A stretch of DNA of 64,000 nt from an uncultured Gammaproteobacteria bacterium (GTDB lineage: Bacteria; Patescibacteriota; Microgenomatia; UBA10105; UBA927). Shown here piece by piece: positions 8,862 through 52,278 of this stretch. Each line of letters opens with the position of its first letter. Positions within the stretch are counted from its first letter, which is position 1. The DNA lies in contig CAZEVT010000002.1 in assembly GCA_964515005.1 (NCBI GenBank), positions 28,968-92,967 on the forward strand, in the 5' to 3' direction. The position numbers were made by a program, and so were the translations under genes. The notes under the pieces were generated by a model. It worked only from the letters and a program-made list of their open reading frames with translations, was not told the origin of the DNA and did no database searches.

Positions 8862-9947
8862 TTAGGGGTTGCCTGTCTCGTAATATAGTTGAGTATTGGG
8901 CGGAGCCGGAAGCAAATCTCCAGTTTTACCATCTATCGTCATACCCGGAGGATATGGGACAAAAATCATTGTCCCTTCCGGAGCTGGTATAAAATAATAT
9001 CCCGCCACGTTTCCGCACATGCGGCAGTCTCCATCAGCATACCAATAGCCTGTTTCTCCCCGCGAAACTAATTGTGTAATAATAAATCCAGTCCCTTTAT
9101 CATTAAGGATCCATTGAGTTTTTGCCACCTCTTCAAATAATTTACCACCCTTCACATATGGTCCAACTGCGTGGGGCATTTGTAAATCTTCCTCTACTGA
9201 ATCTTGAGATAATTCGGGTTGCGGTAAAACATACCGCAAAGGAATTTCTCCTAGTCTTTTAGAATCTTCTATGGATCTATATATCTCTTTTGGTTGAGCT
9301 GATTCATTGTTACTCTTAGATAAGATCGCCACATTGGCTGCTTGAATCGGTTCCGACACCGGAATTTCTATAGTTGCAGGAGTAACTTTTAACCCACACG
9401 CAGCTAAGATAATGAGCGGCGATACGCGAACAGCAACTTTTGCCGTTAAACCGCTTATATCAAGTATTTTTGCGCTTGTTGGATCATCAGGATCTAACTC
9501 TTTTTGCAAGTAGGCACCGTATGCTTCAAACACATTTTGTGCAGTATCTGTTGCCTTTTTGGTTAATTCATGCGTTTCCCCATGAATTTTATGCGTCTGA
9601 GGTATGTTTGCAAGAGAGTCCAGAGCAAAATACTGAAGTGATGTTAAAGCGCTTGTTTGATCTGGTGTAAGCGCCTTGGGATTTGCGTATGCCCAACTCA
9701 GTTGATCCGACATCGTCTCAGGTTTTTTGTCTCCAGCGCGCAAAAGATGCATGTCATCTTCTGTGGCAGATAGGGGTCCAAAAAGTGAAAAAAGGGCTTC
9801 TGATGCGCGGGATCCACGCATTCCCTCCTTTTGGAAAATATTAAGGTGTTCTCGTATTGTCCGATCTCCGAGGCCTTTTGCTAAAGTAAATACAACCAAA
9901 TCTCCTGTGCCCTGGTCTGCTGACGGCATAAGTTCTGGCATATTCAT
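8862..9947 (-). CDS. Hypothetical protein (low-GC island)
   Basis: 361-aa ORF with no recognisable motifs. Local GC is clearly below that of the flanking pilus genes. Confidence 0.4.
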   Translation of the reverse strand: MNMPELMPSADQGTGDLVVFTLAKGLGDRTIREHLNIFQKEGMRGSRASEALFSLFGPLSATEDDMHLLRAGDKKPETMSDQLSWAYANPKALTPDQTSALTSLQYFALDSLANIPQTHKIHGETHELTKKATDTAQNVFEAYGAYLQKELDPDDPTSAKILDISGLTAKVAVRVSPLIILAACGLKVTPATIEIPVSEPIQAANVAILSKSNNESAQPKEIYRSIEDSKRLGEIPLRYVLPQPELSQDSVEEDLQMPHAVGPYVKGGKLFEEVAKTQWILNDKGTGFIITQLVSRGETGYWYADGDCRMCGNVAGYYFIPAPEGTMIFVPYPPGMTIDGKTGDLLPAPPNTQLYYETGNP

Positions 9948-10122
9948 ATGTACCCTATAGTATCATATTTGCACATTACTGTCAATCAACTGTACAGTGT
10001 CTACGGGCTCTTTTGCAACTACAAGGCTTCTTTAGGTATAGTATAGTATCTGTTTCTTGTCAAGCACATTGTATGCTTCAAAAATCTTAGCAAACATGCG
10101 GCCTTAAAATCTATATTACTCC

Positions 10123-10647
10123 TTGAAACTTATCAAAAATAAGAGCTACACTGATTATACAATGAATTGGAGAGTCATGACCTTGTTTGTATTCATTTTT
10201 CTCATCATTATGGCTTTGGGGGCATATTATTTCCGAACTTCAATATTCCCTCAAGGTCCGTTTAATACTATATTAGAATATAAACAGGCAATCGGTTTAA
10301 TTCAGTCAAACTGCAATGAAACAATGTTCAGTGACGACCAAAGTAAAATTGATTATTTTTTAGGACTTTATTCCTCATTTGGAAGTGACATACGTATCGA
10401 CGAAGGGTCAGGCTATTTTGTATCTCCCTCAAATAAACACTTTACATTACAGTTTTTCAATGTGGAAGAAGAGACAGTCATTGCCAAACGGCAACTCATC
10501 CTCTTCCCCTCGCCTACTGAGCAAAAATCCTATTGCTGGATAGCAGAAATTGAAGACACTCCTGGCATTGGCCGCGCAGCATATGAAACCCAATCTGGAG
10601 AAATAAAAGTGATTCGGGTAAAAAATCTACCTGCATTTTCTCCATAA
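10123..10647 (+). CDS. Hypothetical membrane-anchored protein
   Basis: N-terminal transmembrane helix (VMTLFVFIFLIIMALGAYYF); AT-rich; opposite strand to the surrounding pilus operon. Confidence 0.4.
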   Translation: MKLIKNKSYTDYTMNWRVMTLFVFIFLIIMALGAYYFRTSIFPQGPFNTILEYKQAIGLIQSNCNETMFSDDQSKIDYFLGLYSSFGSDIRIDEGSGYFVSPSNKHFTLQFFNVEEETVIAKRQLILFPSPTEQKSYCWIAEIEDTPGIGRAAYETQSGEIKVIRVKNLPAFSP

Positions 10648-10693
10648 AACATTTTTGCTTTTTGGTCACCGTATTGGTATATTTTAAATATAT

Positions 10694-11083
10694 ATGTCTA
10701 CATCGCTCAAAGTTTTTTTTACGATATTTACCGTGTTTATCGTTGGGCTAAGCGCCTATCTTGGATACGTTTATTTTTTCCGTTCGCCAAACCTCAATCC
10801 ATCTTTGAGTCAACCAGCCGCGGGTTCTGAGTCTCAGGGGACGGACTATCAAGGTCAGATACTTTGCATCCATGATACCAAAAAAGGTACATCGCTTTCG
10901 GCGTGTGACAGTTTTGGCATGATGATGAGTGATGACACATACTATGAACTGATATTGGGCAACGGGGTACGCGCAACCGGCTACACGCAGATGGAAAAAG
11001 TAAAGGTTTCAGGAGTACTCACGCCGGGGACCTCGCCGCTGGGGCTTGACGGCACCCTGACCGTCTCCAAAATCAGCAAATAA
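10694..11083 (+). CDS. Hypothetical membrane-anchored protein
   Basis: N-terminal transmembrane helix (VFFTIFTVFIVGLSAYLGYVYFF); AT-rich; paired with the preceding gene. Confidence 0.4.
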   Translation: MSTSLKVFFTIFTVFIVGLSAYLGYVYFFRSPNLNPSLSQPAAGSESQGTDYQGQILCIHDTKKGTSLSACDSFGMMMSDDTYYELILGNGVRATGYTQMEKVKVSGVLTPGTSPLGLDGTLTVSKISK

Positions 11084-34741: not shown

Positions 34742-35278
34742 CTACTTACGATGAAATCTTTGGAAAGTATCCCGCGAAAATCGAAGTTTTTCCTCCTGCC
34801 ATGAGTTGTATCCGGTGCCGCGCAAAAACATGTGAAGCATTAAATTTTTCTCCTCGTAAAATGGATATGGAACATTGCCAATCCAAATAACACGGTCGTC
34901 ATTGAGAAAAATTCTTACACACGAAGGATCCGTTGTGCCGCATTCTATGATGAAACGCCCATCCCGTGTGCGGATATCAGGATGTAATCCATCAAACTCA
35001 GATTCAAAAAGAACGTAGGATTGTCCTTGGTGTATCAACCACCGTTTTCCAAGCTTTTTGAGCGCCATATGGCCTTTTTCCTGCGGTCCTAAGCCTTCGG
35101 TGACAGCGATCGTATCCTGAATCTCGTGATAGGCTTCGACCGAAGCGATTACGGATTTTTCATAACGTACTGCGCCGTTGTCTATGGCAATCGCAAGCTC
35201 ATCAAGCACATCCCACGACGTGGCCGCCGGAAATCCGGAATAAAAAATATTTTTGAGTTCTTCGGAAGTCGGATTCAT
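34742..35278 (-). CDS. Hypothetical protein
   Basis: 178 aa, no recognisable motifs. Overlaps the stop of the downstream integrase by 4 nt. Confidence 0.35.
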   Translation of the reverse strand: MNPTSEELKNIFYSGFPAATSWDVLDELAIAIDNGAVRYEKSVIASVEAYHEIQDTIAVTEGLGPQEKGHMALKKLGKRWLIHQGQSYVLFESEFDGLHPDIRTRDGRFIIECGTTDPSCVRIFLNDDRVIWIGNVPYPFYEEKNLMLHMFLRGTGYNSWQEEKLRFSRDTFQRFHRK

Positions 35279-36291
35279 CGCACATCCTTTAGCGGGTGGA
35301 ACTTATGATGCGTTTCCTCTGCATATTGGTCTGATGTATGGACATATCGCGTCGTCGTATCCAGCGATTCATGACCCAAAAGAATCTGAATCGCCGCGGG
35401 ATTGGCGCCTCCTTCCGCCAAATACGTCGCAAATCCATGGCGCAATGTATGGGCGCTTATAGGTATATTGATATGGAGGTCCTGCCGGTATTTTTTGATG
35501 CGCTCCTGTAAATAGTTTGTTGATATGTGCTGTTTTATTGACGATAACCCGCGACCCCTGTACGGGATAAACAATGCAGGAATATGATCATGTCGAATGC
35601 GTATATATGCGCTCAGATGGTATTTGGCGCGTTCAGTTAGATACACAAAGCGTTCTTTTTTTCCTTTGCCCAAAATAAAAATTCTTCCCGTATCATCGAT
35701 CTGATCGCGTTTCAGATTGACAAGCTCGGAAATACGCATACCCGTCGCGATTAACAGTTCAAGCATGGCACGATTTCGCAGTCCCGCCCGCGAATCCTTT
35801 TCTAACCGACTCGGCGCTTCGATAATTCGTACTAATTCTTTGAGTTCTGCAATTTTCGGATGCGTGCGAATCGTTTTAACCAATTTGACCGCCTCAGGCG
35901 CCACCGGTACCTGAAAATCCATATCTATAAGGTACTTCAAATACGTTCGGACCACCGAAAGCATACGGTTCACGCTTGTAGATGCTAGCTCTTCGGAGTG
36001 CTTAAGCCGTTCTAGGGGCGTTACACGGTCTTGCGATACAAGATATGCTTTGTAATATGCAAGTTTTTTTTTGTCTAGCTGATCGAAAGGAAATCGGGAT
36101 TCAGATAAAAATTGCGCGAAGGTTAGCAGGTCGCGTTCATAGTTATAAACCGTTTCCTGTGAATACCGATTGGTTTGAAGAAAGAGGAGAAAGTCATCGA
36201 ATAATGGTAAGGAGGCTGAAACATCGATGGAACGAGATGAACCCGTCAGGGGAGTTGGAGAAATTGGTTCAGGCTTGTTAGTCGTGTTCAT
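35275..36291 (-). CDS. Tyrosine recombinase / phage-type integrase (second copy)
   Basis: HTLRHGFATYLAEGG...LLGHESLDTTTRYVHT with the R..HxxR..Y catalytic residues. About 25% of positions appear to match the first recombinase. Confidence 0.8.
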   Translation of the reverse strand: MNTTNKPEPISPTPLTGSSRSIDVSASLPLFDDFLLFLQTNRYSQETVYNYERDLLTFAQFLSESRFPFDQLDKKKLAYYKAYLVSQDRVTPLERLKHSEELASTSVNRMLSVVRTYLKYLIDMDFQVPVAPEAVKLVKTIRTHPKIAELKELVRIIEAPSRLEKDSRAGLRNRAMLELLIATGMRISELVNLKRDQIDDTGRIFILGKGKKERFVYLTERAKYHLSAYIRIRHDHIPALFIPYRGRGLSSIKQHISTNYLQERIKKYRQDLHINIPISAHTLRHGFATYLAEGGANPAAIQILLGHESLDTTTRYVHTSDQYAEETHHKFHPLKDVR

Positions 36292-38583: not shown

Positions 38584-39475
38584 CCGCACTATCCCCCATC
38601 CGGACGATGAGATCTGCACGTCCCGACTCGGTTGCTACTAATTCTTTGCACCCGAGTATAGCGGTCGTCACCTTCGCGCTCACGCTTTTGAGCGTTTCTT
38701 CAGATCCCGCAATTTCACACGCATCTATATCCGCGTTTTCATTTCCCACTGCCACGACGGAAACGCCTACATGCGAAAGCAGGCGTGCGGTGCGCTCACC
38801 CAAAGAGGGCATATCCGTCGTATTGTACAGCGCTACCGTCACCCCCTCACGGCGAACCCGCGCGTCTTCAAAGATTCCTTTGAGTTGTAAGTCTATGGCA
38901 GGCATATCAATCACCCACTGCTTGGTCCCGTCCGGAAGGATAGTGTCACGCGCGACCGATTGTGGCTGACGGGAGAAATCATAGGTATTGACCCGGTCGG
39001 GTTTCGTTACTTGCAGGAGCCAGGTAAATCCAAGAAATGTACGAAGAGATATATTCGTCCGGTACTGTCTTCCAATGTAAGAAAAGATATTTCGCAGTGA
39101 AAAAATCTCTTTTGCCAACGACGGTGCATCGGACGAGCCCGTAAATACTCCGGAGACCGGTCCTATATACCACTCAACCGGTATCCCTATGGCCTCGGTG
39201 AGACTTTCCGAGAGTACTGTACCGTCTTTTTTATCAATCTCGCCCAGGCGCCAAAATGCATCGAGCGAATACTCCCCGTACCCGTGCGTCCCCTCGGCAA
39301 CGACGTCAGAAGGCAAACTCACGAGCGTAAGCGTCCGGTCCGTGGGATCCCAGGAAAAAATGATCATGGGAGAACCTGCCAAAACTACCGATTGTCTGGC
39401 ATATGGACCCTGCCGTGGAAAAAAGATCCATGTGGCCAGGATTGCCAAAAGAAGGATGAGCGCGAACTTTCCCAT
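38558..39475 (-). CDS. LCP-family (LytR-CpsA-Psr) protein with a LytR_C domain
   Basis: Transmembrane anchor, an LCP core (RTLTLVSLPSDVVAEGTHGYGEYSLDAFWRLG), and a C-terminal TVALYNTTDMPSLGERTARLL...VAVGN that is LytR_C-like. Confidence 0.5.
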   Translation of the reverse strand: MGKFALILLLAILATWIFFPRQGPYARQSVVLAGSPMIIFSWDPTDRTLTLVSLPSDVVAEGTHGYGEYSLDAFWRLGEIDKKDGTVLSESLTEAIGIPVEWYIGPVSGVFTGSSDAPSLAKEIFSLRNIFSYIGRQYRTNISLRTFLGFTWLLQVTKPDRVNTYDFSRQPQSVARDTILPDGTKQWVIDMPAIDLQLKGIFEDARVRREGVTVALYNTTDMPSLGERTARLLSHVGVSVVAVGNENADIDACEIAGSEETLKSVSAKVTTAILGCKELVATESGRADLIVRMGDSAVKRFQPLH

Positions 39476-39477
39476 TT

Positions 39478-39627
39478 ACCAATCTTTTTTGCCCTTTTTG
39501 ATAATCGTAACCTGCGGCAGCTGCCAGCCCATACCGCTGCCCATTTGTTTCTGCGCTTTTTTTTCAAGCTCGGTCTTTTTGAATTTTTTCTTTTCGCCTT
39601 TGTAAAACCCGCTGTTTGATGCCATAA
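39478..39627 (-). CDS. Small basic protein (49 aa), absent from the ORF track
   Basis: MASNSGFYKGEKKKFKKTELEKKAQKQMGSGMGWQLPQVTIIKKGKKDW. A perfect Shine-Dalgarno AAGGAGGTG sits 6 nt upstream, and the stop abuts the LCP gene start. Confidence 0.4.
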
Positions 39628-39646
39628 TTCCACCTCCTTTTCTATT

Positions 39647-40728
39647 CTATAGCCACGAGCGCTTAAGTTCAAGGAACCGGTTTTTCTTAATGGACGTACG
39701 AATATCTTCCATGAGGCGCTCCATAACATGGAGATTGTGGATCGTGGCTAAGCGGTACGAAAGGAGCTCTTTCACGCGAAACAGATGGTGGACGTAGGCC
39801 CGGGTGAAATGCACGCATGTGTAACAAGCGCATCCCCTTTCTATTGGCCCGAAATCCTTTGCAAACTTCGATTTAGTAATATCTATCTGCTTGTTTTTCA
39901 CATACAGCATCCCAACGCGTGCGAGTCTCGTAGGCTGTACGCAGTCAAACGTATCCATGCCGGCTTCAACGAGCGTGAAAATATCATCAATCTCCCCACT
40001 CCCAAAAGATGACGGGGTTTGTTTTGAGGAAGAAACGGTACGACCCACTCCAAAACTTTTGCCATTTCTTTTTTGCTTTCTCCCACTGACACGCCGCCAA
40101 TTGCCAATCCATCAAAATCCATGGAACCAATAAACTTGGCCGACTCCTGCCGTAAATCTTTGTACACACTCCCTTGAATTGAACCATACAGCGCCCCCTT
40201 TTTATGAGCTGCCAAACTGCGTTTTGCCCATCTATGGGTTCTGTCTAAAGATTGTCGTGCTTTTTCGTGCGTCACCGGATACGGTGTGCAATCGTCAAAT
40301 GCAATGTGGATATCCGCGCCTAACTCTTCCTGCCATTGCATACTTTTTTCCGGGGTAAACACATGCTTACTGCCATCCCAGTGGGATTTAAATTCCACTC
40401 CCTCATCCGTAATTTTTGCGCCCAAAGAAAATATCTGGAATCCTCCACTGTCGGTCATGAGCGGCCCGTTCCAGTTCATAAATTTGTGGAGTCCTCCTGC
40501 TTTCTTCACCACCGCGATCCCCGGCCGCAAATACATGTGATACGTGTTGACGAAATACAATTGAACACCAATGATGTTCAACTCTTCAGGTATGAGGCTT
40601 TTGACCGTCGCCTGCGTGCCGCACGGCACAAACGCCGGGGTCCCAATTGTGCCATGCGCCGTCCTTATCTTCCCTACTCGAGCGCGGGTATTTTTATCTT
40701 GATGAAGAACTTTAAATGCAAATGGCAT
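39647..40728 (-). pseudogene. tgt: Queuine tRNA-ribosyltransferase (tgt) split by a +/-1 frameshift
   Basis: ORF 39898..40728 carries the TGT N-terminus and core up to LPQNKPRHLLGVG. ORF 39647..40048, in another frame, carries DIFTLVEAGMDTFDCVQPTRLARVG and the CxCxxC zinc site. The frames switch near homopolymers at about 39990. Confidence 0.75.
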
Positions 40729-40730
40729 TG

Positions 40731-42284
40731 CTATATTTTATACGGTTGGGCAGAATATAGCCACGTGCGTAAATTTGCCAAAGGCCCATCTATTTCCTTT
40801 TTTTGGTTTTTCCTATACGCTCCCAGCAAACGCAAAAGCTGTTGGCTTCCTAACTGTTCTGGTTTTTGTATGCTATAAAAGTCATGCGAATTCCTCGCAT
40901 GCCATGATGGAAATTGTAAACAAAACATCGTTATTGCGGTATCTACTTGATCCGGTTTAGAAAATGAAAAGGCCGGTCCGTATACCATATATCCGTATCC
41001 ATAGATGAGTCGTCGTAATCCCGGTTCAAGCGCATCCATAATTCCCATCGGAATTGCCATACGAAGAAATAGCTCTGAATCGTAATCATTCAATCTCATA
41101 AAAAGCCGTATTATTTCGGAATTTAAAAAATTATTTTTCCGTCCAAATACTGCTACTTCTGTTTTTTTATCACGCAAAAGAACAAGCAATTCTTTCCGAT
41201 AGCGCACCCACCAATCGCCATATAATAGATTGTCACTATATCTCCCGAGATGTTGCGTTTTTTCCGCAATCGCACGGAGTCCGGCATGAAGCGCTTCTTC
41301 AATAGTGCGATAATTTGGCTCCTCAATTACTTCCGGATGTTCAAAAGCAGCACGCATATCGATATATTTTTTGCTTGGCAACACCATCCATTGTTGGGAA
41401 CGGATTGATGTACCATCAAAAAGCCTACTATACCCTTCCTCAGCTTCTGAGTAGATATATAGTGGTACAAGCGTATTCATTGATCTAGGCATCTGTGGAC
41501 CAATGCGCAAATCCCGTTCATAGTTAGTTACGTGAATCGTAATATCCGGCAATTTAGGATCCGCTTTCTCACGTACATCGCTTAATCGCACTTCCAAAGC
41601 GGTAAGGTGCGCATAGCGCACAAATCGTACCGTCACCACGCTGACGGGTTTACCCCATTTCGTTTTTTGTTCCATCACCCCTTTAAACACCACATCTTTT
41701 TCATCCGGTTTAATACGCATTCGCCTAAACGTATCTCCTTTTAATAAGTGCAGAAAGTTTGGCAGTAATCGATCTTCAACAAATTTATCGAATGGTTCAC
41801 CGAGTGGAAATTTTCTGTCAATATCCATCATATCGGGTAAATCTCCGTACATGCGCTTATGAAGCGCCGCAACTGCTGCATAATTATCCGGTCGAGAAAT
41901 GGCACTTCGAAAACTACCACCAAATCCAAACCCTAAAAAACTTAAGTGTTTCGCATCAAGTAGCGGCGTCTCAAAACGCTTAAGAAGGTCGGCGTCCCAT
42001 ATAGGATTAGATTGCAGTAGTGCAATATCAAGAAGCGTATTCAGAAACAACGCATCGTCGACCATGTGATGGAACTCTTGAGTGCCATATCGCCAATCAA
42101 CGGCACTTGCTGTATCTATCAGAAACCCTTTTAGTCCATTCTCAAGTGGAGCATAAACATAGCCGTCGTCGATTTCAGAAAATGGGAGTTTGTCACCGGA
42201 CAAAATTGACTGAGCAGCTACCTCGCTACCCAACCATTGAGCGACGGGCTCATTTGCACTGATGCCAATTTCAGGAGTTGTCAT
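40731..42284 (-). CDS. Large hypothetical protein (517 aa from the internal start)
   Basis: No recognisable motifs; AT-rich. Start moved to MTTPEIGIS (42284) to avoid a 166-nt overlap with the upstream regulator. Confidence 0.45.
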   Translation of the reverse strand: MTTPEIGISANEPVAQWLGSEVAAQSILSGDKLPFSEIDDGYVYAPLENGLKGFLIDTASAVDWRYGTQEFHHMVDDALFLNTLLDIALLQSNPIWDADLLKRFETPLLDAKHLSFLGFGFGGSFRSAISRPDNYAAVAALHKRMYGDLPDMMDIDRKFPLGEPFDKFVEDRLLPNFLHLLKGDTFRRMRIKPDEKDVVFKGVMEQKTKWGKPVSVVTVRFVRYAHLTALEVRLSDVREKADPKLPDITIHVTNYERDLRIGPQMPRSMNTLVPLYIYSEAEEGYSRLFDGTSIRSQQWMVLPSKKYIDMRAAFEHPEVIEEPNYRTIEEALHAGLRAIAEKTQHLGRYSDNLLYGDWWVRYRKELLVLLRDKKTEVAVFGRKNNFLNSEIIRLFMRLNDYDSELFLRMAIPMGIMDALEPGLRRLIYGYGYMVYGPAFSFSKPDQVDTAITMFCLQFPSWHARNSHDFYSIQKPEQLGSQQLLRLLGAYRKNQKKEIDGPLANLRTWLYSAQPYKI

Positions 42285-43452
42285 ACCGAAATCCCTTTCC
42301 CTTGACGGCTTGAATAATCGATTTATTGAAATTGAGCTCGACACATTTTTTGCGAACGCGGGAAATAAGCTGATCGATCGCCCAATCTGAATAGGAATTC
42401 TCCCAATTATCTTTCCAAACGGCTTTTGCAATTTCATCGCGGGTCACAATGTGGCCCGCCCGCTGGACAAAAAGCCGCAAAACGTACTGTTCCTGCGAAG
42501 ACAGAATTGTATCTATTGGGACATCTCCGAGGACCAACCTATCCCCTGATATTTCTATACGTTTATTTGGTTTTCGAAGCGATTCTACATATTCTGCAAG
42601 AAGAGGTATCGTGAGGTATAATCGATGACCTCGAGCTTCCAGCCATCTAGTCTGTTTCAAAAACTCGATACTGATTGCTTCGTCCGGCGTAAAATCGTTC
42701 GCGCCCACGACAACTTTCAGTATCGCTGTTTGTTCCGACCGCAACAATCCATCATATATGCTTTTTAGCTTTATCTGCATCATCGGGTGATGTAATATAT
42801 CTTGAACATTCGTAGATCCGGTATCCCGAACAAAACGCACCGCTTGCTTAAGGGGCGTAAAATGGCATGTTGCCGTTCGCACGACTTCTCTCAGAATTTT
42901 TTCGCTCATGGATACCTTCCACGCGCGGGTCCAATGGTACAAAAAATACGCGCTCGAGGCTTTGTCGTGAAGGGGCATTATAACGGTATTTTGAATAAAA
43001 GTAGAGGTATAGGTAAGTATGGAACTTACCGTCGGGTGAAGAAAATTTATATTGAAAAATAAAACGTATGAAATGGTCGGATTTTTCGCCTGACGTTTCC
43101 GTAAGTAATGGAAAAACGATTCAGACTTGCCCACAAGCAAACGGTCTATGCCACAAATCCAGTAAATAGGCGCGTTTGTGTTCTCTTCATGTTTTTGAAA
43201 TTCTTTTTCAAGAACATCGGGGTCTTCCAGGTTTCCTGTATCGATATCGATAATAATGGGGACATTTCCGCGAAAATGCGTCGTAATAAGATCGGGTCGT
43301 TTACAAAGCGCTTCATGACGCCGAAGCACTTCTCCTTTATGGTAGATATACACACTTCCCGATTCCTGAAACTTGGAAATATGACTCCATGAAAAAAGCA
43401 AATCCCGAAACTCTTCTTCTGAATACGCGTCTGCATATAACGCTTGTTTCAT
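42271..43452 (-). CDS. Transcriptional regulator with a C-terminal OmpR/PhoB-type winged helix and an unknown ~290-aa N-terminal domain
   Basis: C-terminus SQEQYVLRLFVQRAGHIVTRDEIAKAVWKDNWENSYSDWAIDQLISRVRKK...GKGFRY fits the trans_reg_C pattern. No receiver-domain motifs (no Asp pocket) upstream. Confidence 0.55.
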   Translation of the reverse strand: MKQALYADAYSEEEFRDLLFSWSHISKFQESGSVYIYHKGEVLRRHEALCKRPDLITTHFRGNVPIIIDIDTGNLEDPDVLEKEFQKHEENTNAPIYWICGIDRLLVGKSESFFHYLRKRQAKNPTISYVLFFNINFLHPTVSSILTYTSTFIQNTVIMPLHDKASSAYFLYHWTRAWKVSMSEKILREVVRTATCHFTPLKQAVRFVRDTGSTNVQDILHHPMMQIKLKSIYDGLLRSEQTAILKVVVGANDFTPDEAISIEFLKQTRWLEARGHRLYLTIPLLAEYVESLRKPNKRIEISGDRLVLGDVPIDTILSSQEQYVLRLFVQRAGHIVTRDEIAKAVWKDNWENSYSDWAIDQLISRVRKKCVELNFNKSIIQAVKGKGFRYDNS

Positions 43453-43488
43453 ACGGATATTGGGCAGGAACGGAAGTATATCATATTG

Positions 43489-43503
43489 TTGTCAAATTGA
43501 CAA
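43489..43503. promoter_or_regulatory. Perfect 7-1-7 palindrome TTGTCAAATTGACAA in the divergent intergenic region (candidate operator)
   Basis: Lies between the regulator start (43452) and the plus-strand gene at 43584. Confidence 0.4.
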
Positions 43504-43583
43504 TATTTCATCAGAATCCCCCATCAAGCATCGAAAGGATACAAAGTATATAAAACAACAACAAATTATCGAAGGAGGCAATT

Positions 43584-43967
43584 ATGACAAGAGATACCGA
43601 GCCAAAGTCAATAAGTCCGGAAAAAGCAATTATAGAAGTTGTCGTACAAGGGGCTATGCGATATGGAATTGGGCCAACTCAGGCAGGCGAATACCTGCAG
43701 GAACTAGCAGGAATTCTGACACCAATTTCAGAAAATCAAAGAATCGACGAGTTAACAAAACTGATAGACCCTAACATTCCGAACAGAAGTTTAATCAAAA
43801 AAATTGCTGAGAGTGGATGGCGGCTTCATATTGACCCTATCAAGCTATTTCAATTTAATATGGATTTCGTCACTGTTGTTCTTGCGTTACCCGAAGAAAT
43901 GCGATCGCAAGCCATTGATCCGGATTTTCTAAACGGCATTGCCGGACATCTCAAAGGCAAGATGTAA
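43584..43967 (+). CDS. Hypothetical protein
   Basis: 127 aa, no recognisable motifs. Its stop abuts the following sigma region-4 gene. Confidence 0.35.
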   Translation: MTRDTEPKSISPEKAIIEVVVQGAMRYGIGPTQAGEYLQELAGILTPISENQRIDELTKLIDPNIPNRSLIKKIAESGWRLHIDPIKLFQFNMDFVTVVLALPEEMRSQAIDPDFLNGIAGHLKGKM

Positions 43968-43968
43968 T

Positions 43969-44241
43969 ATGGCAAAAGTTTCCCCGGAAGACACGGAGGC
44001 AATGGCATTACGAAATGTGATGACGCCGAAGTTGCGCGAAGACTTGGACCGGGCATTAAGCACATTATCCGAAAGGCGAAGAGAAATATTTCTGGCGCAT
44101 TTTTTGGATGGTGCTACCTATGCTGATTTGAGCCTGCACTATGGAGTAACAGAAAAAAGAATTGGTGCAATTATCAACAATACTCGCAATAATTTACGAG
44201 GCGTCACTAGTCTCAGGCAATATTTGGATATGATTCCGTGA
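43969..44241 (+). CDS. Sigma-70 region-4-like helix-turn-helix protein (stand-alone)
   Basis: LSERRREIFLAHFLDGATYADLSLHYGVTEKRIGAIINNTRNNLR is the sigma70_r4_2 pattern. Start placed at MAKVSPED. Confidence 0.45.
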   Translation: MAKVSPEDTEAMALRNVMTPKLREDLDRALSTLSERRREIFLAHFLDGATYADLSLHYGVTEKRIGAIINNTRNNLRGVTSLRQYLDMIP

Positions 44242-44279
44242 CTCTCTTAAGGTGCCTTCAAGGACTCTCCTCGTAGGCC

Positions 44280-44711
44280 TTACCCGGCCCCGTGTTCGAT
44301 CCGCTCAATCAGTTCCTTTGGCGAAACAATGCGAAACATGCGGATTTTGCCCCGAAGAGCTAACAGGTGTTTCTTATCCAGGGTCACGAGGAAATCTGCG
44401 CGATATTCTTTCGCCGATGCGAGTACATGCGCATCGCCGACATCAACGACCACTGCTTCAAATCCTCGTACAATACTGACCGGCGGTGCGGGAACAACGG
44501 TAAACAATTTTGTGAGTGTGCGGATAGATGTAGCGGGAATACTCAACTTCGCGCGGTGGCGCATAATTTCATCCAGAATGATTTCACTCACGAATCCCTG
44601 TACATTCCCTTTCCGGATCCATCCCAGCAGTTTCCCTGAACCTCCGGACGGTGATGCAAAACCCGAAAGAACAACGGAAGCATTAAACAGTATTCGTGGT
44701 TTTGCGCGCAT
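44280..44711 (-). CDS. PIN-domain toxin (VapC-like)
   Basis: MRAKPRILFNASVVLSG at the N-terminus (an Asn takes the place of the usual first acidic residue; LDEIMRH and VVDVGDAHV follow), the conserved acidic positions, and C-terminal ADFLVTLDKKHLL. C-terminal tail IERIEHGAG. Confidence 0.55.
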   Translation of the reverse strand: MRAKPRILFNASVVLSGFASPSGGSGKLLGWIRKGNVQGFVSEIILDEIMRHRAKLSIPATSIRTLTKLFTVVPAPPVSIVRGFEAVVVDVGDAHVLASAKEYRADFLVTLDKKHLLALRGKIRMFRIVSPKELIERIEHGAG

Positions 44712-44916
44712 GCAACTCCTTGCTTTCTTTTTTATCCAGCTCAATGAACTCACGGAGCTCCGCATCTGTATACGATCGGACGGGATATGCCAGAGTCCGC
44801 ACCGGCTCGATCGTCAGTCTCCCACGATCAGTACGCACGCGCACCAGATCATTTTCCGAAATACCGACACGCTCGCGGAGTTTTTTTGGAATAGTAACCA
44901 GCCCCTTCGGCTGCAT
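44683..44916 (-). CDS. AbrB/MazE/SpoVT-type antitoxin
   Basis: KGLVTIPKKLRERVGISENDLVRVRTDRGRLTIEPV is the swapped-hairpin barrel motif. Overlaps the PIN gene start. Confidence 0.5.
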   Translation of the reverse strand: MQPKGLVTIPKKLRERVGISENDLVRVRTDRGRLTIEPVRTLAYPVRSYTDAELREFIELDKKESKELHARKTTNTV

Positions 44917-45008
44917 TTTTACAATATCTTCAAGTGGAAGTAGTTGCATAAGTTGGAATTTCTACCTTTCTATATTTCCATATTATACTATTTTTAACAA
45001 CGTGTCAA

Positions 45009-45056
45009 CTATCCCGCGCCGTGTTCGATTTTGAGCCGTGAGATTTTGCCGGCAAT
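45009..45056 (-). repeat. Orphan copy of the C-terminal tail cassette (IAGKISRLKIEHGAG*), in frame after the TAA stop of the upstream gene
   Basis: The sequence cccgcgccgtgttcgattttgagccgtgagattttgccggc is about 93% identical to 45794..45835, which is the coding 3' end of the kefB-like gene. Confidence 0.6.
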
Positions 45057-45674
45057 TTAATATTCTTTTGTTGCAATAACCTGCGAGAGAAGGTTTGCTA
45101 CATCAAGCTTCTTTGCCTGACCCAAAAGATATTTCTCATCCAGTTTACCTTTTTGCACCAGCCACATTCCCACACAGTCACGCATATGACGTTCGCTGGG
45201 CACTTCTTTACACCATGACAGTTTCGTAAGAATCAAGTCTTCCGGGGATAACAGAGGAATTGTTGTGTCTATGATGCGAATAGCACGGCGGCGTTGCCAT
45301 TTCCTGTCAAACTCCGTACTTGTCACTAACCATAAATCTATTTTTACCCCGACATATGTGTGATACAGACTATAGAAGCTGATATTTGGATCGTGAAGCT
45401 GAATTGTATCCTGCAGATATATACGAGGAAGTGCAGTAAGCGCTCGCATAAGCCTTTCTTTTGCATTCCTCGAAATTTCCAACACAAAATCAATGTCATG
45501 CGTAGCCCGGGGATATCCGTAAAACGCAACGGCAAGACTCCCAGTGAGAAGATAAGGAATGGTAAATGTCTGGAAAAGACGCGCAAAGGTAACAAGAATG
45601 TCTTGCTGGCCGTGTTCAATTTTGTTTTGGAGATTTTTTTTGCCCATGATATGTTTCCCTATCCTGCTTCCCAA
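45057..45674 (-). CDS. AbiEii/DUF1814-like nucleotidyltransferase-fold protein
   Basis: LLTGSLAVAFYGYPRATHDIDFVLE matches the NTase G[ST]x9-13[DE]h[DE]h motif. About 200 aa; the start may be the internal Met at 45647. Confidence 0.4.
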   Translation of the reverse strand: MGSRIGKHIMGKKNLQNKIEHGQQDILVTFARLFQTFTIPYLLTGSLAVAFYGYPRATHDIDFVLEISRNAKERLMRALTALPRIYLQDTIQLHDPNISFYSLYHTYVGVKIDLWLVTSTEFDRKWQRRRAIRIIDTTIPLLSPEDLILTKLSWCKEVPSERHMRDCVGMWLVQKGKLDEKYLLGQAKKLDVANLLSQVIATKEY

Positions 45675-45768
45675 GTCGGGCTAGTTCTCGTACAAAATCA
45701 GACAGTTTGAGAGCCTGTATCAGCCGTTTTTCGCCGGAAAGTTTACGAAGCACCGTCGTTTGATCCAT
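45616..45768 (-). CDS. Small ORF (50 aa) overlapping the start of the nucleotidyltransferase-like gene; possible truncated antitoxin partner
   Basis: MDQTTVLRKLSGEKRLIQALKLSDFVRELARLGKQ... A TATAAT box sits 7 nt upstream of the ATG, suggesting a leaderless transcript. Confidence 0.3.
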   Translation of the reverse strand: MDQTTVLRKLSGEKRLIQALKLSDFVRELARLGKQDRETYHGQKKSPKQN

Positions 45769-45790
45769 GAAAAGTATTATACCACGACAA

Positions 45791-47521
45791 CTACCCCGCC
45801 CCGTGTTCGATTTTGAGCCGTGAGATTTTGCCTGCGATTTCTTCTTCATTGACTCCAAATGATGGAAGCAAGCGTTCGACGATTGAGATTGCCGCTTCAA
45901 ACTCCGGCTGAACGACCGCATCAACGCCTAAAGATTTAAGGTGCTTCTGATCTTCTTCATGATGCGTCCGGCAGATGATTTTAATCTTGCGGTTTAAGGT
46001 TTGGGCGTGTCCAATGACCATCTCCTGCGTATGCCGGTCCGGTATAGCAATAATCAGCGCCTTCGCATGGTCTACCTGCGCAAAATCCAAGACGTCCTTG
46101 TCCGCGGGGTCGCCGTAGATGACCGGTATCCCTTTTTCCTTCAGCGATGCCACGGCGGCACTATTGTAATCAACAACGACAAACGGGAGCCCAGACAACT
46201 CAAGCGCCCTTCCTATATACTTCCCCACCCTGCCGTAGCCGCAGAGAACCACGTGATCCCGGTACGGCAACTCTTCTTTCATATCCGCAAGTTCTTTTTT
46301 AGTGTGAAAAATCGTCGGCGTATACTTCCCAAGCCATTCGTGGAACGCGTAATACAGTCCGTGGCCCCGGGCCATAAGCGGAGTAGAGACTAAGATCGTG
46401 AGAAACGTAAGGGCGACAATAAAAATTGCATGCTCCCCGCCTATGGCGCCAAGGGCAAGACTTTGGGACGCGATGATAAATCCAAACTCGCTCATCTGGG
46501 TCAGGCCAACGGCGACCAAAAATGACGTTTTTCGGTGATAGCCTAAAAACCGCATGAGCCCCATGACGACAAACCATTTAAGCGCAAGAATGACGGCGGT
46601 CATGATCGCAAGCGTGCCTGCCATCTGCCACAAATACGCAACTGGAATTCCCATCCCGATCGATACAAAAAACACCACGGCAAACAGATCCCGAAGCGGC
46701 CGGATTTCAGCAAATATCGCATGATTTTGACTGGTCTCGGCAATAAGAAGGCCGGCGATGAACGCACCCAAGCCCGCGGAAAGTCCTAGAACATACGTGG
46801 TAATTGCGGAAAGAAACACCAAGGCAACGGTCGCCAAGACAAAGATTTCGCGGCTCCCCATGGAGGCGATTTTCCCCAACACCCGCGGCACCACGCGTTT
46901 GCCTATAAGGACAATAAGCCCCAAGGCAAGAGCCGCCTTCAGAACGCTGATGCCAAGCGTCGTCACGAGACCCGTAATACTCGCGTCACCCGAGGCGGAA
47001 CTGGATACCACGGACGGCAAAAGAATCATGATGGGGATGACCGCAATATCCTGAACAACGAGCCACCCGGTCATCACCTCGCCCGGCAAGGTATCCAGCT
47101 CTCCCCGTTCCGAAAGCACCTTGACGACAACCGCGGTTGAGGAAAGGGCGGCGGCAACGGCAATCACAAGGGCAGGCAAGAACCCAAACCCCAGATACAT
47201 GGCACCAAGAAGAAACAGGAATATGCAAATGAGTATCTGAAACGATGCCGCCCAGGTGACCGCGCCAAGAACACGTTTCAACCTGTGAAATGAAAACTCC
47301 ACCCCAAGGGTAAAAAGGAGAAGGGTGACGCCGGTATCGGCGATAATTTTCAAAAATACGTGATCCGTAATTCTCGGAAACAGATTGCCAAAAAGTACAC
47401 CTGCCGCGATATACCCGAGAAGAAGCGGTTGCTTGAGCAGTTTCGCTATCGCCCCGCCAAACATGGCGGCCCCAAAAACAAGAAGCAGCGTTGTGATGAG
47501 GGATAAGCTATGCGTGTCCAT
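45791..47521 (-). CDS. kefB: CPA2-family monovalent cation/H+ antiporter with a C-terminal TrkA-N (RCK) domain
   Basis: About 12 transmembrane segments, then VVLCGYGRVGKYIGRALE...VVVDYN, a Rossmann-type RCK domain. The C-terminal tail AGKISRLKIEHGAG is encoded by the repeat cassette. Confidence 0.75.
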   Translation of the reverse strand: MDTHSLSLITTLLLVFGAAMFGGAIAKLLKQPLLLGYIAAGVLFGNLFPRITDHVFLKIIADTGVTLLLFTLGVEFSFHRLKRVLGAVTWAASFQILICIFLFLLGAMYLGFGFLPALVIAVAAALSSTAVVVKVLSERGELDTLPGEVMTGWLVVQDIAVIPIMILLPSVVSSSASGDASITGLVTTLGISVLKAALALGLIVLIGKRVVPRVLGKIASMGSREIFVLATVALVFLSAITTYVLGLSAGLGAFIAGLLIAETSQNHAIFAEIRPLRDLFAVVFFVSIGMGIPVAYLWQMAGTLAIMTAVILALKWFVVMGLMRFLGYHRKTSFLVAVGLTQMSEFGFIIASQSLALGAIGGEHAIFIVALTFLTILVSTPLMARGHGLYYAFHEWLGKYTPTIFHTKKELADMKEELPYRDHVVLCGYGRVGKYIGRALELSGLPFVVVDYNSAAVASLKEKGIPVIYGDPADKDVLDFAQVDHAKALIIAIPDRHTQEMVIGHAQTLNRKIKIICRTHHEEDQKHLKSLGVDAVVQPEFEAAISIVERLLPSFGVNEEEIAGKISRLKIEHGAG

Positions 47522-52189: not shown

Positions 52190-52278
52190 TGGTGCCTAGG
52201 GAGAGACTCGAACTCTCATGGAGTGTTAGCCCCACAGGTTTTTGAGACCTGCGCGTCTACCGGTTCCGCCACCCAGGC
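52190..52278 (-). tRNA. tRNA-Leu (anticodon CAA), type II with a long variable arm and encoded CCA
   Basis: GCCTGGGTGGCGGAACCGGTAGACGCGCAGGTCTCAAAAACCTGTGGGGCTAACACTCCATGAGAGTTCGAGTCTCTCCCTAGGCACCA. Has a 7-bp acceptor stem (one G-U), T-loop TTCGAGT, and anticodon loop CUCAAAA. Confidence 0.85.

What the first reader, a model, noticed from the sequence alone, without database searches (positions are those of the whole stretch)
40731..43583. Uncharacterised 517-aa protein with an OmpR-type winged-helix regulator that lacks a receiver domain, plus a palindromic operator
The regulator's last ~100 aa match the OmpR/PhoB DNA-binding domain (…LFVQRAGHIVTRDEIAKAVWKDNWENSYSDWAIDQLISRVRKK…GKGFRY). The preceding ~290 aa show no receiver motifs, so this is a one-component regulator with an unknown sensory domain. 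Its stop overlaps the start of a large AT-rich protein with no detectable family, followed by frameshifted tgt. The divergent promoter region holds a perfect TTGTCAAATTGACAA palindrome. Together with the flanking toxin-antitoxin modules this looks like a regulated accessory cassette of unknown function, possibly defence-related.
Basis: partly seen in the sequence, partly recalled or inferred. Interest (0 to 1): 0.55.

Follow-up and report, generated by a model that had tools for sequence, protein, structure and literature searches.

The report
Orphan nucleotidyltransferase with STAND-like OmpR regulator
A small group of uncultivated Gottesmanbacteria carries, at a fixed chromosomal position, a translationally coupled gene pair: a DNA-binding regulator built on a degenerate STAND/AAA+ ATPase-like module, and a sequence-orphan enzyme whose predicted fold resembles tRNA CCA-adding enzymes; it is lineage-specific core equipment of untested function, not a mobile defence cassette.

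Summary
These are a 393-aa OmpR-type winged-helix protein with no receiver domain, a 517-aa protein whose ATG lies 14 nt before the regulator's stop, a tgt gene broken by a 1-nt deletion, and the perfect palindrome at 43489-43503.

Tools add three points.
3. The pair sits in the same syntenic block in five Gottesmanbacteria genomes and diverges about as fast as its core neighbours. The toxin-antitoxin genes lie in an adjacent variable slot.

The palindrome covers the -35 hexamer and the spacer of the best promoter match. It is conserved across orthologues, with a compensatory change.

Best reading: an autoregulated, vertically inherited operon encoding a new nucleotidyltransferase family, probably acting on RNA. 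The defence-cassette reading is not supported.

The parts
43475..43503 (-). Sigma-70-type promoter of the regulator operon: -35 TTGTCA (43503-43498), 17-nt spacer, TG-extended -10 TATACT (43480-43475)
   Evidence: Best promoter match in 39400-44400, 10 of 12 positions with TG before the -10. TTGTCA-N17-TAnnnT is kept in all orthologous upstream regions.
43489..43503 (.). Perfect 7+1+7 palindrome TTGTCAAATTGACAA. It overlaps the -35 hexamer and the first 9 nt of the spacer. Candidate operator.
   Evidence: Identical in L001 and L004. L007 has TTGTCAGCCTGACAA, with both arms changed so that symmetry is kept. L012 keeps 6 of 7 arm positions. The right arm is degenerate in L006.
43509..43529 (-). 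Conserved upstream block GCTTGAT-N5-ATTCTGATG (consensus CTTGAY-N6-7-ATCCTGAY), containing TGAY repeats. Possible additional regulator or UP-type sites.
   Evidence: Phylogenetic footprint across window, L001, L004, L006, L007 and L012. Function is inferred only.
42568..43452 (-). Regulator aa 1-295: STAND/AAA+-like module (nucleotide-binding-like alpha/beta domain, helical domain, winged helix). Walker A is absent (3-residue loop Y37-H38-K39). D69 is invariant at the Walker B position.
42271..42567 (-). Regulator aa 296-393 plus stop codon: OmpR/PhoB-type winged-helix DNA-binding domain (invariant YSDWAID recognition helix)
40731..42284 (-). 517-aa orphan protein with a predicted Pol-beta-fold nucleotidyltransferase structure (class II CCA-adding enzyme / poly(A) polymerase-like). 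Its ATG lies 14 nt before the regulator's stop. The regulator's KGKGF codons form a Shine-Dalgarno-like AAAGGGAAAGGA upstream of the ATG.
41907..41921 (-). G122-G123-S124-F125-R126: the G[GS]xxR nucleotidyltransferase motif, at the end of predicted strand 114-121
   Evidence: G122 and R126 are invariant in 12 sequences. Secondary structure. It is the only segment hhalign aligned to E. coli Cca/PcnB (GGAVRD), and that alignment is statistically insignificant.
41817..41825 (-). D154-I155-D156: candidate metal-binding DxD on predicted strand 154-159
   Evidence: D154 is invariant. D156 is kept in 11 of 12 sequences. Strand assignment.
39647..40728 (-). tgt (queuine tRNA-ribosyltransferase), starting 2 nt after the NTase stop. 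It is disrupted by a 1-nt deletion at 39997/39998.
   Evidence: PF01702 E 1e-96 and 5e-44 for the two pieces. tblastn and DNA alignment against intact orthologues.

Best explanation
This is a vertically inherited, lineage-specific operon of a Candidatus Gottesmanbacteria (CPR/Patescibacteria) subclade. It is not a mobile cassette.

Gene 1 encodes a one-component transcription factor. It has an N-terminal STAND/AAA+-like module that has lost its P-loop. I infer that this module now serves oligomerisation or ligand/partner sensing rather than ATP hydrolysis. The C-terminal domain is an OmpR/PhoB winged helix.

Gene 2 is translationally coupled to gene 1 through an 11-14-nt overlap. It encodes a new, sequence-orphan family of Pol-beta-superfamily nucleotidyltransferase. 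Its predicted architecture is closest to class II tRNA CCA-adding enzymes and bacterial poly(A) polymerases, and the G[GS]xxR and DxD catalytic motifs are intact.

I infer that gene 2 is an active, template-independent ribonucleotidyl transferase acting on RNA 3' ends. tRNA is the best guess, because the pair lies directly upstream of tgt in every locus where the NTase family could be recognised.

Transcription starts from a TTGTCA-17-TGnTATACT promoter. The conserved palindrome covers the -35 hexamer and the spacer. I infer that a dimer or oligomer of the operon's own regulator binds there and represses the operon (negative autoregulation).

Shown: gene structures, predicted folds, motifs, synteny, rarity and promoter conservation.
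Inferred: catalytic activity, RNA substrate, and which protein binds the palindrome.
For: Synteny and inheritance:
- The same gene order is found in L001, L004, L006 and L007, and in the window's own population.
- Identity to the window is 54-76% for the regulator and 34-75% for the NTase. Flanking core genes range from 41% to 79%.
- The organism name comes from the L008 record title.

NTase fold:
- Predicted beta1-G[GS]xxR-helix-beta2(DxD) topology.
- G122, R126 and D154 are invariant, and D156 is near-invariant, across 12 sequences down to 23% identity.

Regulator:

Coupling:
- The overlap and the Shine-Dalgarno-like sequence are conserved in 6 loci.

Operator:
- The promoter scan places the palindrome over the -35 hexamer and spacer.
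- The palindrome is conserved, with both arms changed together in L007.
- It is kept in L001 and L007, whose divergent neighbour genes are unrelated to the window's. The site therefore goes with the regulator operon.
- No second copy of the site exists in the window.

tgt linkage:
- The distant homologue P0030 (23% identity) is also arranged regulator-NTase-TGT-47aa.
Against: - Foldseek against the PDB found nothing (best E 0.19, TM ~0.1).
- Pfam PolyA_pol, NTP_transf_2 and all other Pfam families give no hit in any member, even at E<=10.
- hhalign against E. coli Cca+PcnB is insignificant (probability 0.2%).
- The GGS-to-DxD spacing of ~30 residues is longer than in canonical members.
- The protein is acidic overall (pI 5-6.5), which is unusual for a tRNA-binding enzyme.
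- Adjacency to tgt is weak evidence in a compact CPR genome, where unrelated genes also overlap (Lgt-DksA-RluA-Na/H exchanger).
- tgt has its own conserved -10-like element just upstream of its ATG.
- tgt is separated from the NTase gene in L006 and L007.
- tgt is broken in the window while the NTase is intact.
- OmpR-family domains usually bind direct repeats, not inverted repeats (my own knowledge).
- The left palindrome arm may be conserved simply because it is the -35 hexamer, and the right arm is degenerate in L006.
Confidence: 0.5

Rival explanations
1. An AbiE/MenAT-like toxin-antitoxin or abortive-infection module that has become fixed in the chromosome. The nucleotidyltransferase would be a toxin that blocks translation by modifying tRNA 3' ends. 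The upstream DNA-binding protein would be its antitoxin and autorepressor, binding the inverted repeat.
For: - The layout matches AbiE as described in PMC3985639 and PMC7319586 (abstracts seen): a bicistronic operon with the winged-helix protein first and the NTase second, and autoregulation through inverted repeats in the promoter.
- The two genes overlap.
- The palindrome lies over the -35 hexamer.
- Distant regulator homologues sit next to different orphan proteins among transposase and toxin-antitoxin genes in L009.
Against: - No AbiEii/DUF1814 or AbiEi hit in Pfam or PADLOC for either protein.
- Both proteins are about twice the size of AbiEi and AbiEii.
- Strict synteny and neighbour-like divergence across genomes down to 34% identity.
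- No relatives in viral, phage or plasmid collections.
Confidence: 0.15
2. A self-contained signalling pair. The NTase-like enzyme would make a nucleotide-derived small molecule, such as an oligonucleotide, a cyclic nucleotide or a nucleotidylated metabolite, or it would nucleotidylate a protein. The regulator's degenerate nucleotide-binding pocket would sense that product or its precursor and tune transcription.
For: - The regulator keeps the STAND fold and an invariant Walker-B-position Asp, plus R45, K202, R206 and R209, while lacking a P-loop. This fits ligand binding without hydrolysis.
- Translational coupling is tight.
- The overall pI is acidic, which is atypical for RNA binders.
Against: - Class II CCA/PAP and FAM46B (RNA 3'-end polymerases) score about twice as high as the cGAS, OAS and CD-NTase hits.
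- No effector-type gene is conserved next to the pair.
- No PADLOC or CBASS hit.
- Nothing tested here bears directly on product identity.
Confidence: 0.15
3. The fold assignment is an artefact of a shallow-alignment AlphaFold model. On this view the 517-aa protein is a lineage-specific protein of another kind, or a catalytically dead scaffold, and the GGS/DxD matches are coincidental.
For: - Only 9 sequences went into the model, and pLDDT is 75 with disordered termini.
- Foldseek found no PDB match.
- No sequence-profile support.
- One distant member, P0029, has Gly in place of D156.
Against: - The two catalytic motifs are the most conserved N-terminal residues of the family, and they fall exactly on the predicted beta1/helix and beta2 elements.
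- The core region has pLDDT 80-95.
Confidence: 0.2

Closest known systems
Class II tRNA nucleotidyltransferases: CCA-adding enzymes and bacterial poly(A) polymerase I (Pfam PF01743 PolyA_pol)
   Same: - G-G-x-x-R followed by DxD on the next strand.
- A beta-sheet head followed by an all-helical body.
- The genomic neighbour is another tRNA enzyme, tgt.
   Different: - No sequence-level membership: no Pfam hit at E<=10, and hhalign probability 0.2%.
- About 110 extra N-terminal residues.
- A longer insert between the GGS and DxD motifs.
- Motifs B-E are not recognisable.
- The protein is acidic.
- It is coupled to a dedicated transcription factor.
AbiE / MenAT nucleotidyltransferase toxin-antitoxin systems (AbiEi winged-helix antitoxin plus AbiEii DUF1814 NTase)
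   Same: - Two-gene operon with the DNA-binding protein first and the Pol-beta NTase second.
- Inverted repeat in the promoter (abstracts).
   Different: - No homology to either component.
- Both proteins are about twice the size.
- Fixed syntenic position and vertical inheritance, not a patchy or mobile distribution.
STAND/AAA+ transcription regulators: MalT-type (NOD plus C-terminal HTH) and AfsR/SARP-type (OmpR winged helix plus BTAD plus NB-ARC)
   Different: - Walker A is lost.
- There is no sensor repeat (TPR-type) arm.
- The OmpR domain is C-terminal and there is no BTAD, which is the reverse of the SARP order.
- At 393 aa it is far smaller than MalT or AfsR.
OmpR/PhoB response regulators
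   Same: The C-terminal winged-helix domain (PF00486, E 1e-13; rmsd 1.9 A to AdeR).
   Different: - No receiver domain and no kinase nearby.
- The candidate site is an inverted repeat, not a direct repeat.

Membership tests
OmpR/PhoB two-component response regulator | N-terminal CheY-like receiver domain with a phospho-acceptor Asp | tested here: not met
   No Response_reg hit in any of 16 members at E<=10. The N-terminal 295 aa superpose on STAND/AAA+ proteins, not on receivers.
OmpR/PhoB two-component response regulator | C-terminal winged-helix Trans_reg_C domain | tested here: met
   [not shown]
OmpR/PhoB two-component response regulator | Cognate histidine kinase encoded nearby | tested here: not met
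   No HisKA or HATPase_c family is listed among the called genes within +/-8 kb in L001, L002, L004, L006 or L007.
STAND / AAA+ NTPases | NBD-helical domain-winged helix architecture | tested here: met
   [not shown]
STAND / AAA+ NTPases | Walker A GxxxxGK[ST] P-loop | tested here: not met
   Only a 3-residue loop (Y37-H38-K39) lies between strand 32-35 and helix 39-50. No glycine-rich loop is present in any of 16 members.
STAND / AAA+ NTPases | Walker B acidic residue at the end of a hydrophobic strand | tested here: inconclusive
   D69 (in IIIDID) is invariant at the end of strand 66-69. The following residue is hydrophobic, not D/E. Nucleotide binding was not testable.
Class II CCA-adding enzyme / poly(A) polymerase (PF01743) | Sequence match to the family profile | tested here: not met
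   No Pfam or NCBIfam hit for 12 members at E<=10. A PDB profile search found no NTase. hhalign against Cca+PcnB gave probability 0.2%.
Class II CCA-adding enzyme / poly(A) polymerase (PF01743) | Pol-beta head with motif A (GGxVRD...DxD) followed by a helical neck and body | tested here: inconclusive
   [not shown]
Class II CCA-adding enzyme / poly(A) polymerase (PF01743) | Motifs B-E (RRD ribose sensor, EDxxR base template) and CCA/poly(A) activity | not testable with these tools
   No residue-level structural alignment was available. EEALHAGLRAIAE at the first post-sheet helix only loosely recalls EDxLRxLRAxRF. That comparison is my own inference from the A6 consensus.
AbiE / MenAT NTase toxin-antitoxin | DUF1814 (AbiEii/MenT) toxin and AbiEi-type antitoxin | tested here: not met
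   Neither protein hits PF08843 or the PADLOC AbiE models. The unrelated 205-aa gene at 45057-45674 does hit them.
AbiE / MenAT NTase toxin-antitoxin | Growth inhibition by the NTase, neutralised by the partner | not testable with these tools
   Requires expression experiments.
CBASS / CD-NTase signalling | CD-NTase plus an adjacent effector | tested here: not met
   [not shown]

The most novel reading that the evidence does not exclude
The 517-aa protein founds a previously unrecognised family of RNA 3'-end nucleotidyltransferases confined to a CPR lineage. It would tail or repair tRNA (or another small RNA) in a reaction distinct from canonical CCA addition. Its synthesis would be gated by a pseudo-ATPase STAND-OmpR transcription factor that senses the enzyme's substrate or product. 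That combination would be a new type of one-component control over tRNA metabolism.
Probability: 0.2. Interest if true: 0.7.

Novelty: new variant of a known kind. Interest (0 to 1): 0.42.

Why it matters
CPR/Patescibacteria genomes are small and full of unannotated genes. Here, two such 'dark' proteins can each be assigned to a superfamily, but only through structure prediction.

The enzyme would extend the Pol-beta nucleotidyltransferase superfamily with a very rare clade of about a dozen sequences among billions. This clade is vertically maintained next to tgt.

The regulator shows a domain combination that I could not find described: a P-loop-less STAND module fused to a C-terminal OmpR winged helix.

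If the enzyme acts on tRNA, it would point to lineage-specific tRNA end-processing in organisms with minimal translation-support machinery. If it does not, the finding is still a clean case of an apparent 'defence cassette' that synteny shows to be core genome.

Tried and rejected
- Sequence family searches on both proteins (Pfam, NCBIfam, PADLOC, PHROGs) returned only Trans_reg_C. Lenient Pfam scans of all family members added nothing.
- An exhaustive profile search of 1.84e9 representatives found only 9 hits. An iterated word-index search with distant members found nothing new.
- A profile search of PDB sequences gave only a chance P450 hit.
- Foldseek against the PDB gave no significant hit. 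The AFDB libraries were not available.
- hhalign of the family against E. coli Cca+PcnB was insignificant, although the single aligned stretch was motif A.
- I tested whether the 583-aa (L009) and 730-aa (L013) partners of distant regulator homologues belong to the same family. hhalign and hmmsearch were negative. Only p730 shows motif-level resemblance (ELVGS...DIDIKI), so homology is left open.
- Metagenome, viral, phage and plasmid scans yielded one extra close relative and no mobile-element copies.
- I looked for a canonical CCA-adding enzyme motif in the window and loci and found none. This covers only a small part of the genome and is not informative.
- I searched for further copies of the palindrome in the window, which would indicate a regulon. 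None exceeded chance.
- Rfam found nothing in the region.
- Literature searches for CPR CCA-adding enzymes or STAND-OmpR-NTase pairs found nothing specific.
- I rejected the divergent sigma-70 region-4-like protein as the palindrome binder. It is present only in the window and L004, while the palindrome is also in L001 and L007.
Full report
**What is in the sequence**

On the minus strand the region holds three consecutive genes.
- A 393-aa protein at 42271-43452.
- A large ORF at 40731-42437.
- A tgt gene split into 39898-40728 and 39647-40048.

The large ORF's real start is the ATG at 42284, which gives 517 aa. That methionine is invariant in nine homologues. Independent gene calls on two other assemblies of the same organism, L002 and L003, use the same start. 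This ATG lies 14 nt before the regulator's stop.

The regulator's conserved KGKGF codons (AAAGGGAAAGGATTT) form a Shine-Dalgarno-like sequence upstream of that ATG. This holds in all six loci examined. The two genes are therefore almost certainly translationally coupled.

The palindrome TTGTCAAATTGACAA is at 43489-43503.

**The regulator**

Pfam finds only Trans_reg_C, at aa 317-389 with E 1e-13. This is true of all 16 family members, even at E<=10.

The canonical Walker A loop is missing. Between strand 32-35 and helix 39-50 there are only three residues (Y-H-K), and no member has a glycine-rich loop. An Asp at the Walker B position (D69) is invariant.

So the 'unknown sensory domain' is a degenerate STAND-like module. 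It is not a divergent receiver. No kinase is called within 8 kb in any of the five genomes.

**The 517-aa protein**

It has no hit in Pfam, NCBIfam, PADLOC or PHROGs. Its homologues have none either, even at E<=10.

The family is tiny.
- 8 proteins in a 5.8-billion-sequence word-index search.
- 9 cluster representatives in an exhaustive HMM search of 1.84 billion representatives.
- One further fragment in JGI metagenomes.

An AlphaFold model from the 9-sequence alignment has pLDDT 75 and pTM 0.70. The core, residues 40-460, is mostly at 75-95.

The two hallmark motifs of that superfamily are present and correctly placed.
- G122-G123-S124-F125-R126 directly follows predicted strand 114-121.
- D154-I-D156 lies on predicted strand 154-159.

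In a 12-sequence alignment reaching 23% identity, G122, R126 and D154 are invariant. D156 is kept in 11 of 12 sequences.

The caveats are real.
- Foldseek against the PDB found nothing (best E 0.19).
- hhalign against E. coli Cca+PcnB is insignificant. However, its single aligned stretch is LGFGFGGSFRSA against KIYLVGGAVRDA, which is motif A.

I therefore treat 'Pol-beta-fold nucleotidyltransferase, class II-like' as probable, at about 75-80%. It is not proven. The protein fails the sequence membership test for PF01743.

**Context: core genome, not a cassette**

The best-characterised relative lies on a 1.22-Mb contig titled Candidatus Gottesmanbacteria.

Five genomes share the same gene order: the window's population (L002, L003), L001, L004, L006 and L007. 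The order is MFS transporter, Lgt, DksA/TraR, RluA, Na/H exchanger, a variable slot, regulator, NTase, tgt, a 47-49-aa gene where called (none is called in L007), a LytR_C-type protein (a Pfam LytR_C hit in L001, L004 and L006 only), and a TPR protein.

Protein identity to the window is 54-76% for the regulator and 34-75% for the NTase. The flanking housekeeping genes run from 41% to 79%. That is the pattern of vertical inheritance, with the NTase evolving somewhat faster.

These are MazE-PIN at 44280-44949 and an AbiEii-like gene at 45057-45674. They have no counterparts at the orthologous loci. Only the 127-aa plus sigma-70-region-4 pair is shared, and only with L004.

No relative of the NTase was found in viral contigs, phage records or plasmids.

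The lower GC of the two genes (40-45%) is seen in every genome. It is a property of the genes, not a sign of recent acquisition.

The 'accessory, possibly defence-related cassette' reading is therefore not supported.

**Link to tgt**

The NTase gene is followed by tgt in every locus where the NTase family is recognisable. This includes the distant P0030 locus, which is arranged regulator, 494-aa protein, TGT, 47-aa protein. The gap is 6 nt or less, or a 4-nt overlap, in four of six loci.

This is suggestive for an enzyme that looks like a tRNA 3'-end enzyme. I weight it lightly, for five reasons.
- Unrelated neighbouring genes also overlap in these compact genomes.
- tgt carries its own conserved -10-like element (GTATAAAATA or TGnTACAAT) a few nucleotides before its ATG in all six loci.
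- An opposite-strand gene separates the NTase gene from tgt in L006, and a 200-nt gap does so in L007.
- In the window tgt is inactivated by a 1-nt deletion while the NTase is intact.
- More distant regulator homologues (25-29% identity) sit upstream of different orphan proteins of 583 and 730 aa, with no tgt. I could not show homology of those partners to the NTase. The 730-aa protein does have ELVGS...DIDIKI motifs.

**Promoter and palindrome**

The best sigma-70-type match in 5 kb is TTGTCA-17 nt-TATACT, with a TG extension, at 43503-43475 on the coding strand. The palindrome's left arm is the -35 hexamer plus one base. Its right arm lies in the spacer.

Conservation in orthologous upstream regions is as follows.
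- L001 and L004: the palindrome is identical.
- L007: TTGTCAGCCTGACAA, where the seventh arm position changed on both sides so that symmetry is kept.
- L012: 6 of 7 arm positions match.
- L006: the right arm has decayed.
- L009 and L013 (distant loci): other TGTCA/TGACA inverted repeats surround the -35 hexamer.

The site persists where the divergent neighbour genes differ. It therefore belongs to the regulator operon.

A perfect palindrome of this size is not rare by itself: 23 in the window against about 14 expected. There is no second copy of this one.

I infer a repressor-type operator used for autoregulation by the operon's own winged-helix protein. Two points count against this.
- OmpR-family domains usually bind direct repeats (my own knowledge).
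- Part of the conservation is explained by the -35 hexamer alone.

A further conserved block, CTTGAY-N6-7-ATCCTGAY at 43509-43529, lies just upstream. It contains TGAY repeats that could be additional sites.

**Mechanism and rivals**

Most likely, at about 0.5: an autoregulated, vertically inherited operon. Its product is an active template-independent ribonucleotidyl transferase of a new family, probably acting on tRNA or another RNA 3' end. It would be controlled by a STAND-like, P-loop-less OmpR-type one-component regulator.

The rivals are these.
- An AbiE/MenAT-like toxin-antitoxin pair fixed in the chromosome (0.15). The operon grammar is the same, as described in PMC3985639 and PMC7319586 (seen). 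But there is no homology, the proteins are twice the size, and the synteny is strict.
- A nucleotide-signal synthase plus sensor pair (0.15).
- A modelling artefact or pseudoenzyme (0.2).

**Verdict**

Noticed in passing
window 39647-40728 (-), deletion between 39998 and 39997: tgt is inactivated by loss of one base in GT(N)GGGG, inside the conserved LLGVGEIDD motif. Both halves are otherwise 68-69% identical to the intact L004 orthologue. The same deletion is present in two other assemblies of this organism (L002, L003), which may derive from related samples.
   Followed up: partly
window 40735-40781 (-) and the equivalent positions in L001, L004, L006, L007, L011: A -10-like element (GTATAAAATA or TGnTACAAT) lies 5-12 nt upstream of the tgt ATG in all six loci. 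In the window there is also a full promoter-like match, TTGGCA-16-TATATT, at 40781-40754. tgt may be transcribed on its own as a leaderless or near-leaderless mRNA.
   Followed up: partly
window 43584-45924: A variable slot lies between the Na/H exchanger and the regulator. It holds a 127-aa orphan plus a 100-aa sigma-70 region-4-like protein (43584-44241, +), a MazE-PIN pair (44280-44949, -), and an AbiEii-like nucleotidyltransferase (45057-45674, -) with a possible partner ORF (45616-45924, -). The contents differ in every orthologous genome. Only the 127-aa plus sigma-r4 pair is shared, and only with L004.
   Followed up: partly
window 34742-36291 (-): A phage-integrase-family gene (338 aa, Pfam hits recorded for L002) and a 178-aa gene lie downstream of the DUF5656 gene, a stretch where no gene is called in L001 or L004. 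Separately, the YebC/TACO1 gene that precedes DUF5656 in L001 and L004 is missing from the window's organism. This may be an integration and replacement event.
   Followed up: no
L009 7253-9004 and L013 2165-4357: Distant homologues of the regulator (25-29% identity) are each followed at once by a different large orphan protein (583 aa and 730 aa) with no Pfam hit. In L009 the pair lies among transposase and toxin-antitoxin genes. The 730-aa protein has ELVGS...DIDIKI motifs reminiscent of a nucleotidyltransferase. Homology to the 517-aa family could not be shown.
   Followed up: partly
window 52190-52278 (-): The only tRNA gene in the window, tRNA-Leu(CAA), carries a genomically encoded 3' CCA (…CCTAGGC-A-CCA).
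   Followed up: no
window 9001-11000: A low-GC patch (0.39-0.43 against about 0.50 for the window). Not examined.
   Followed up: no
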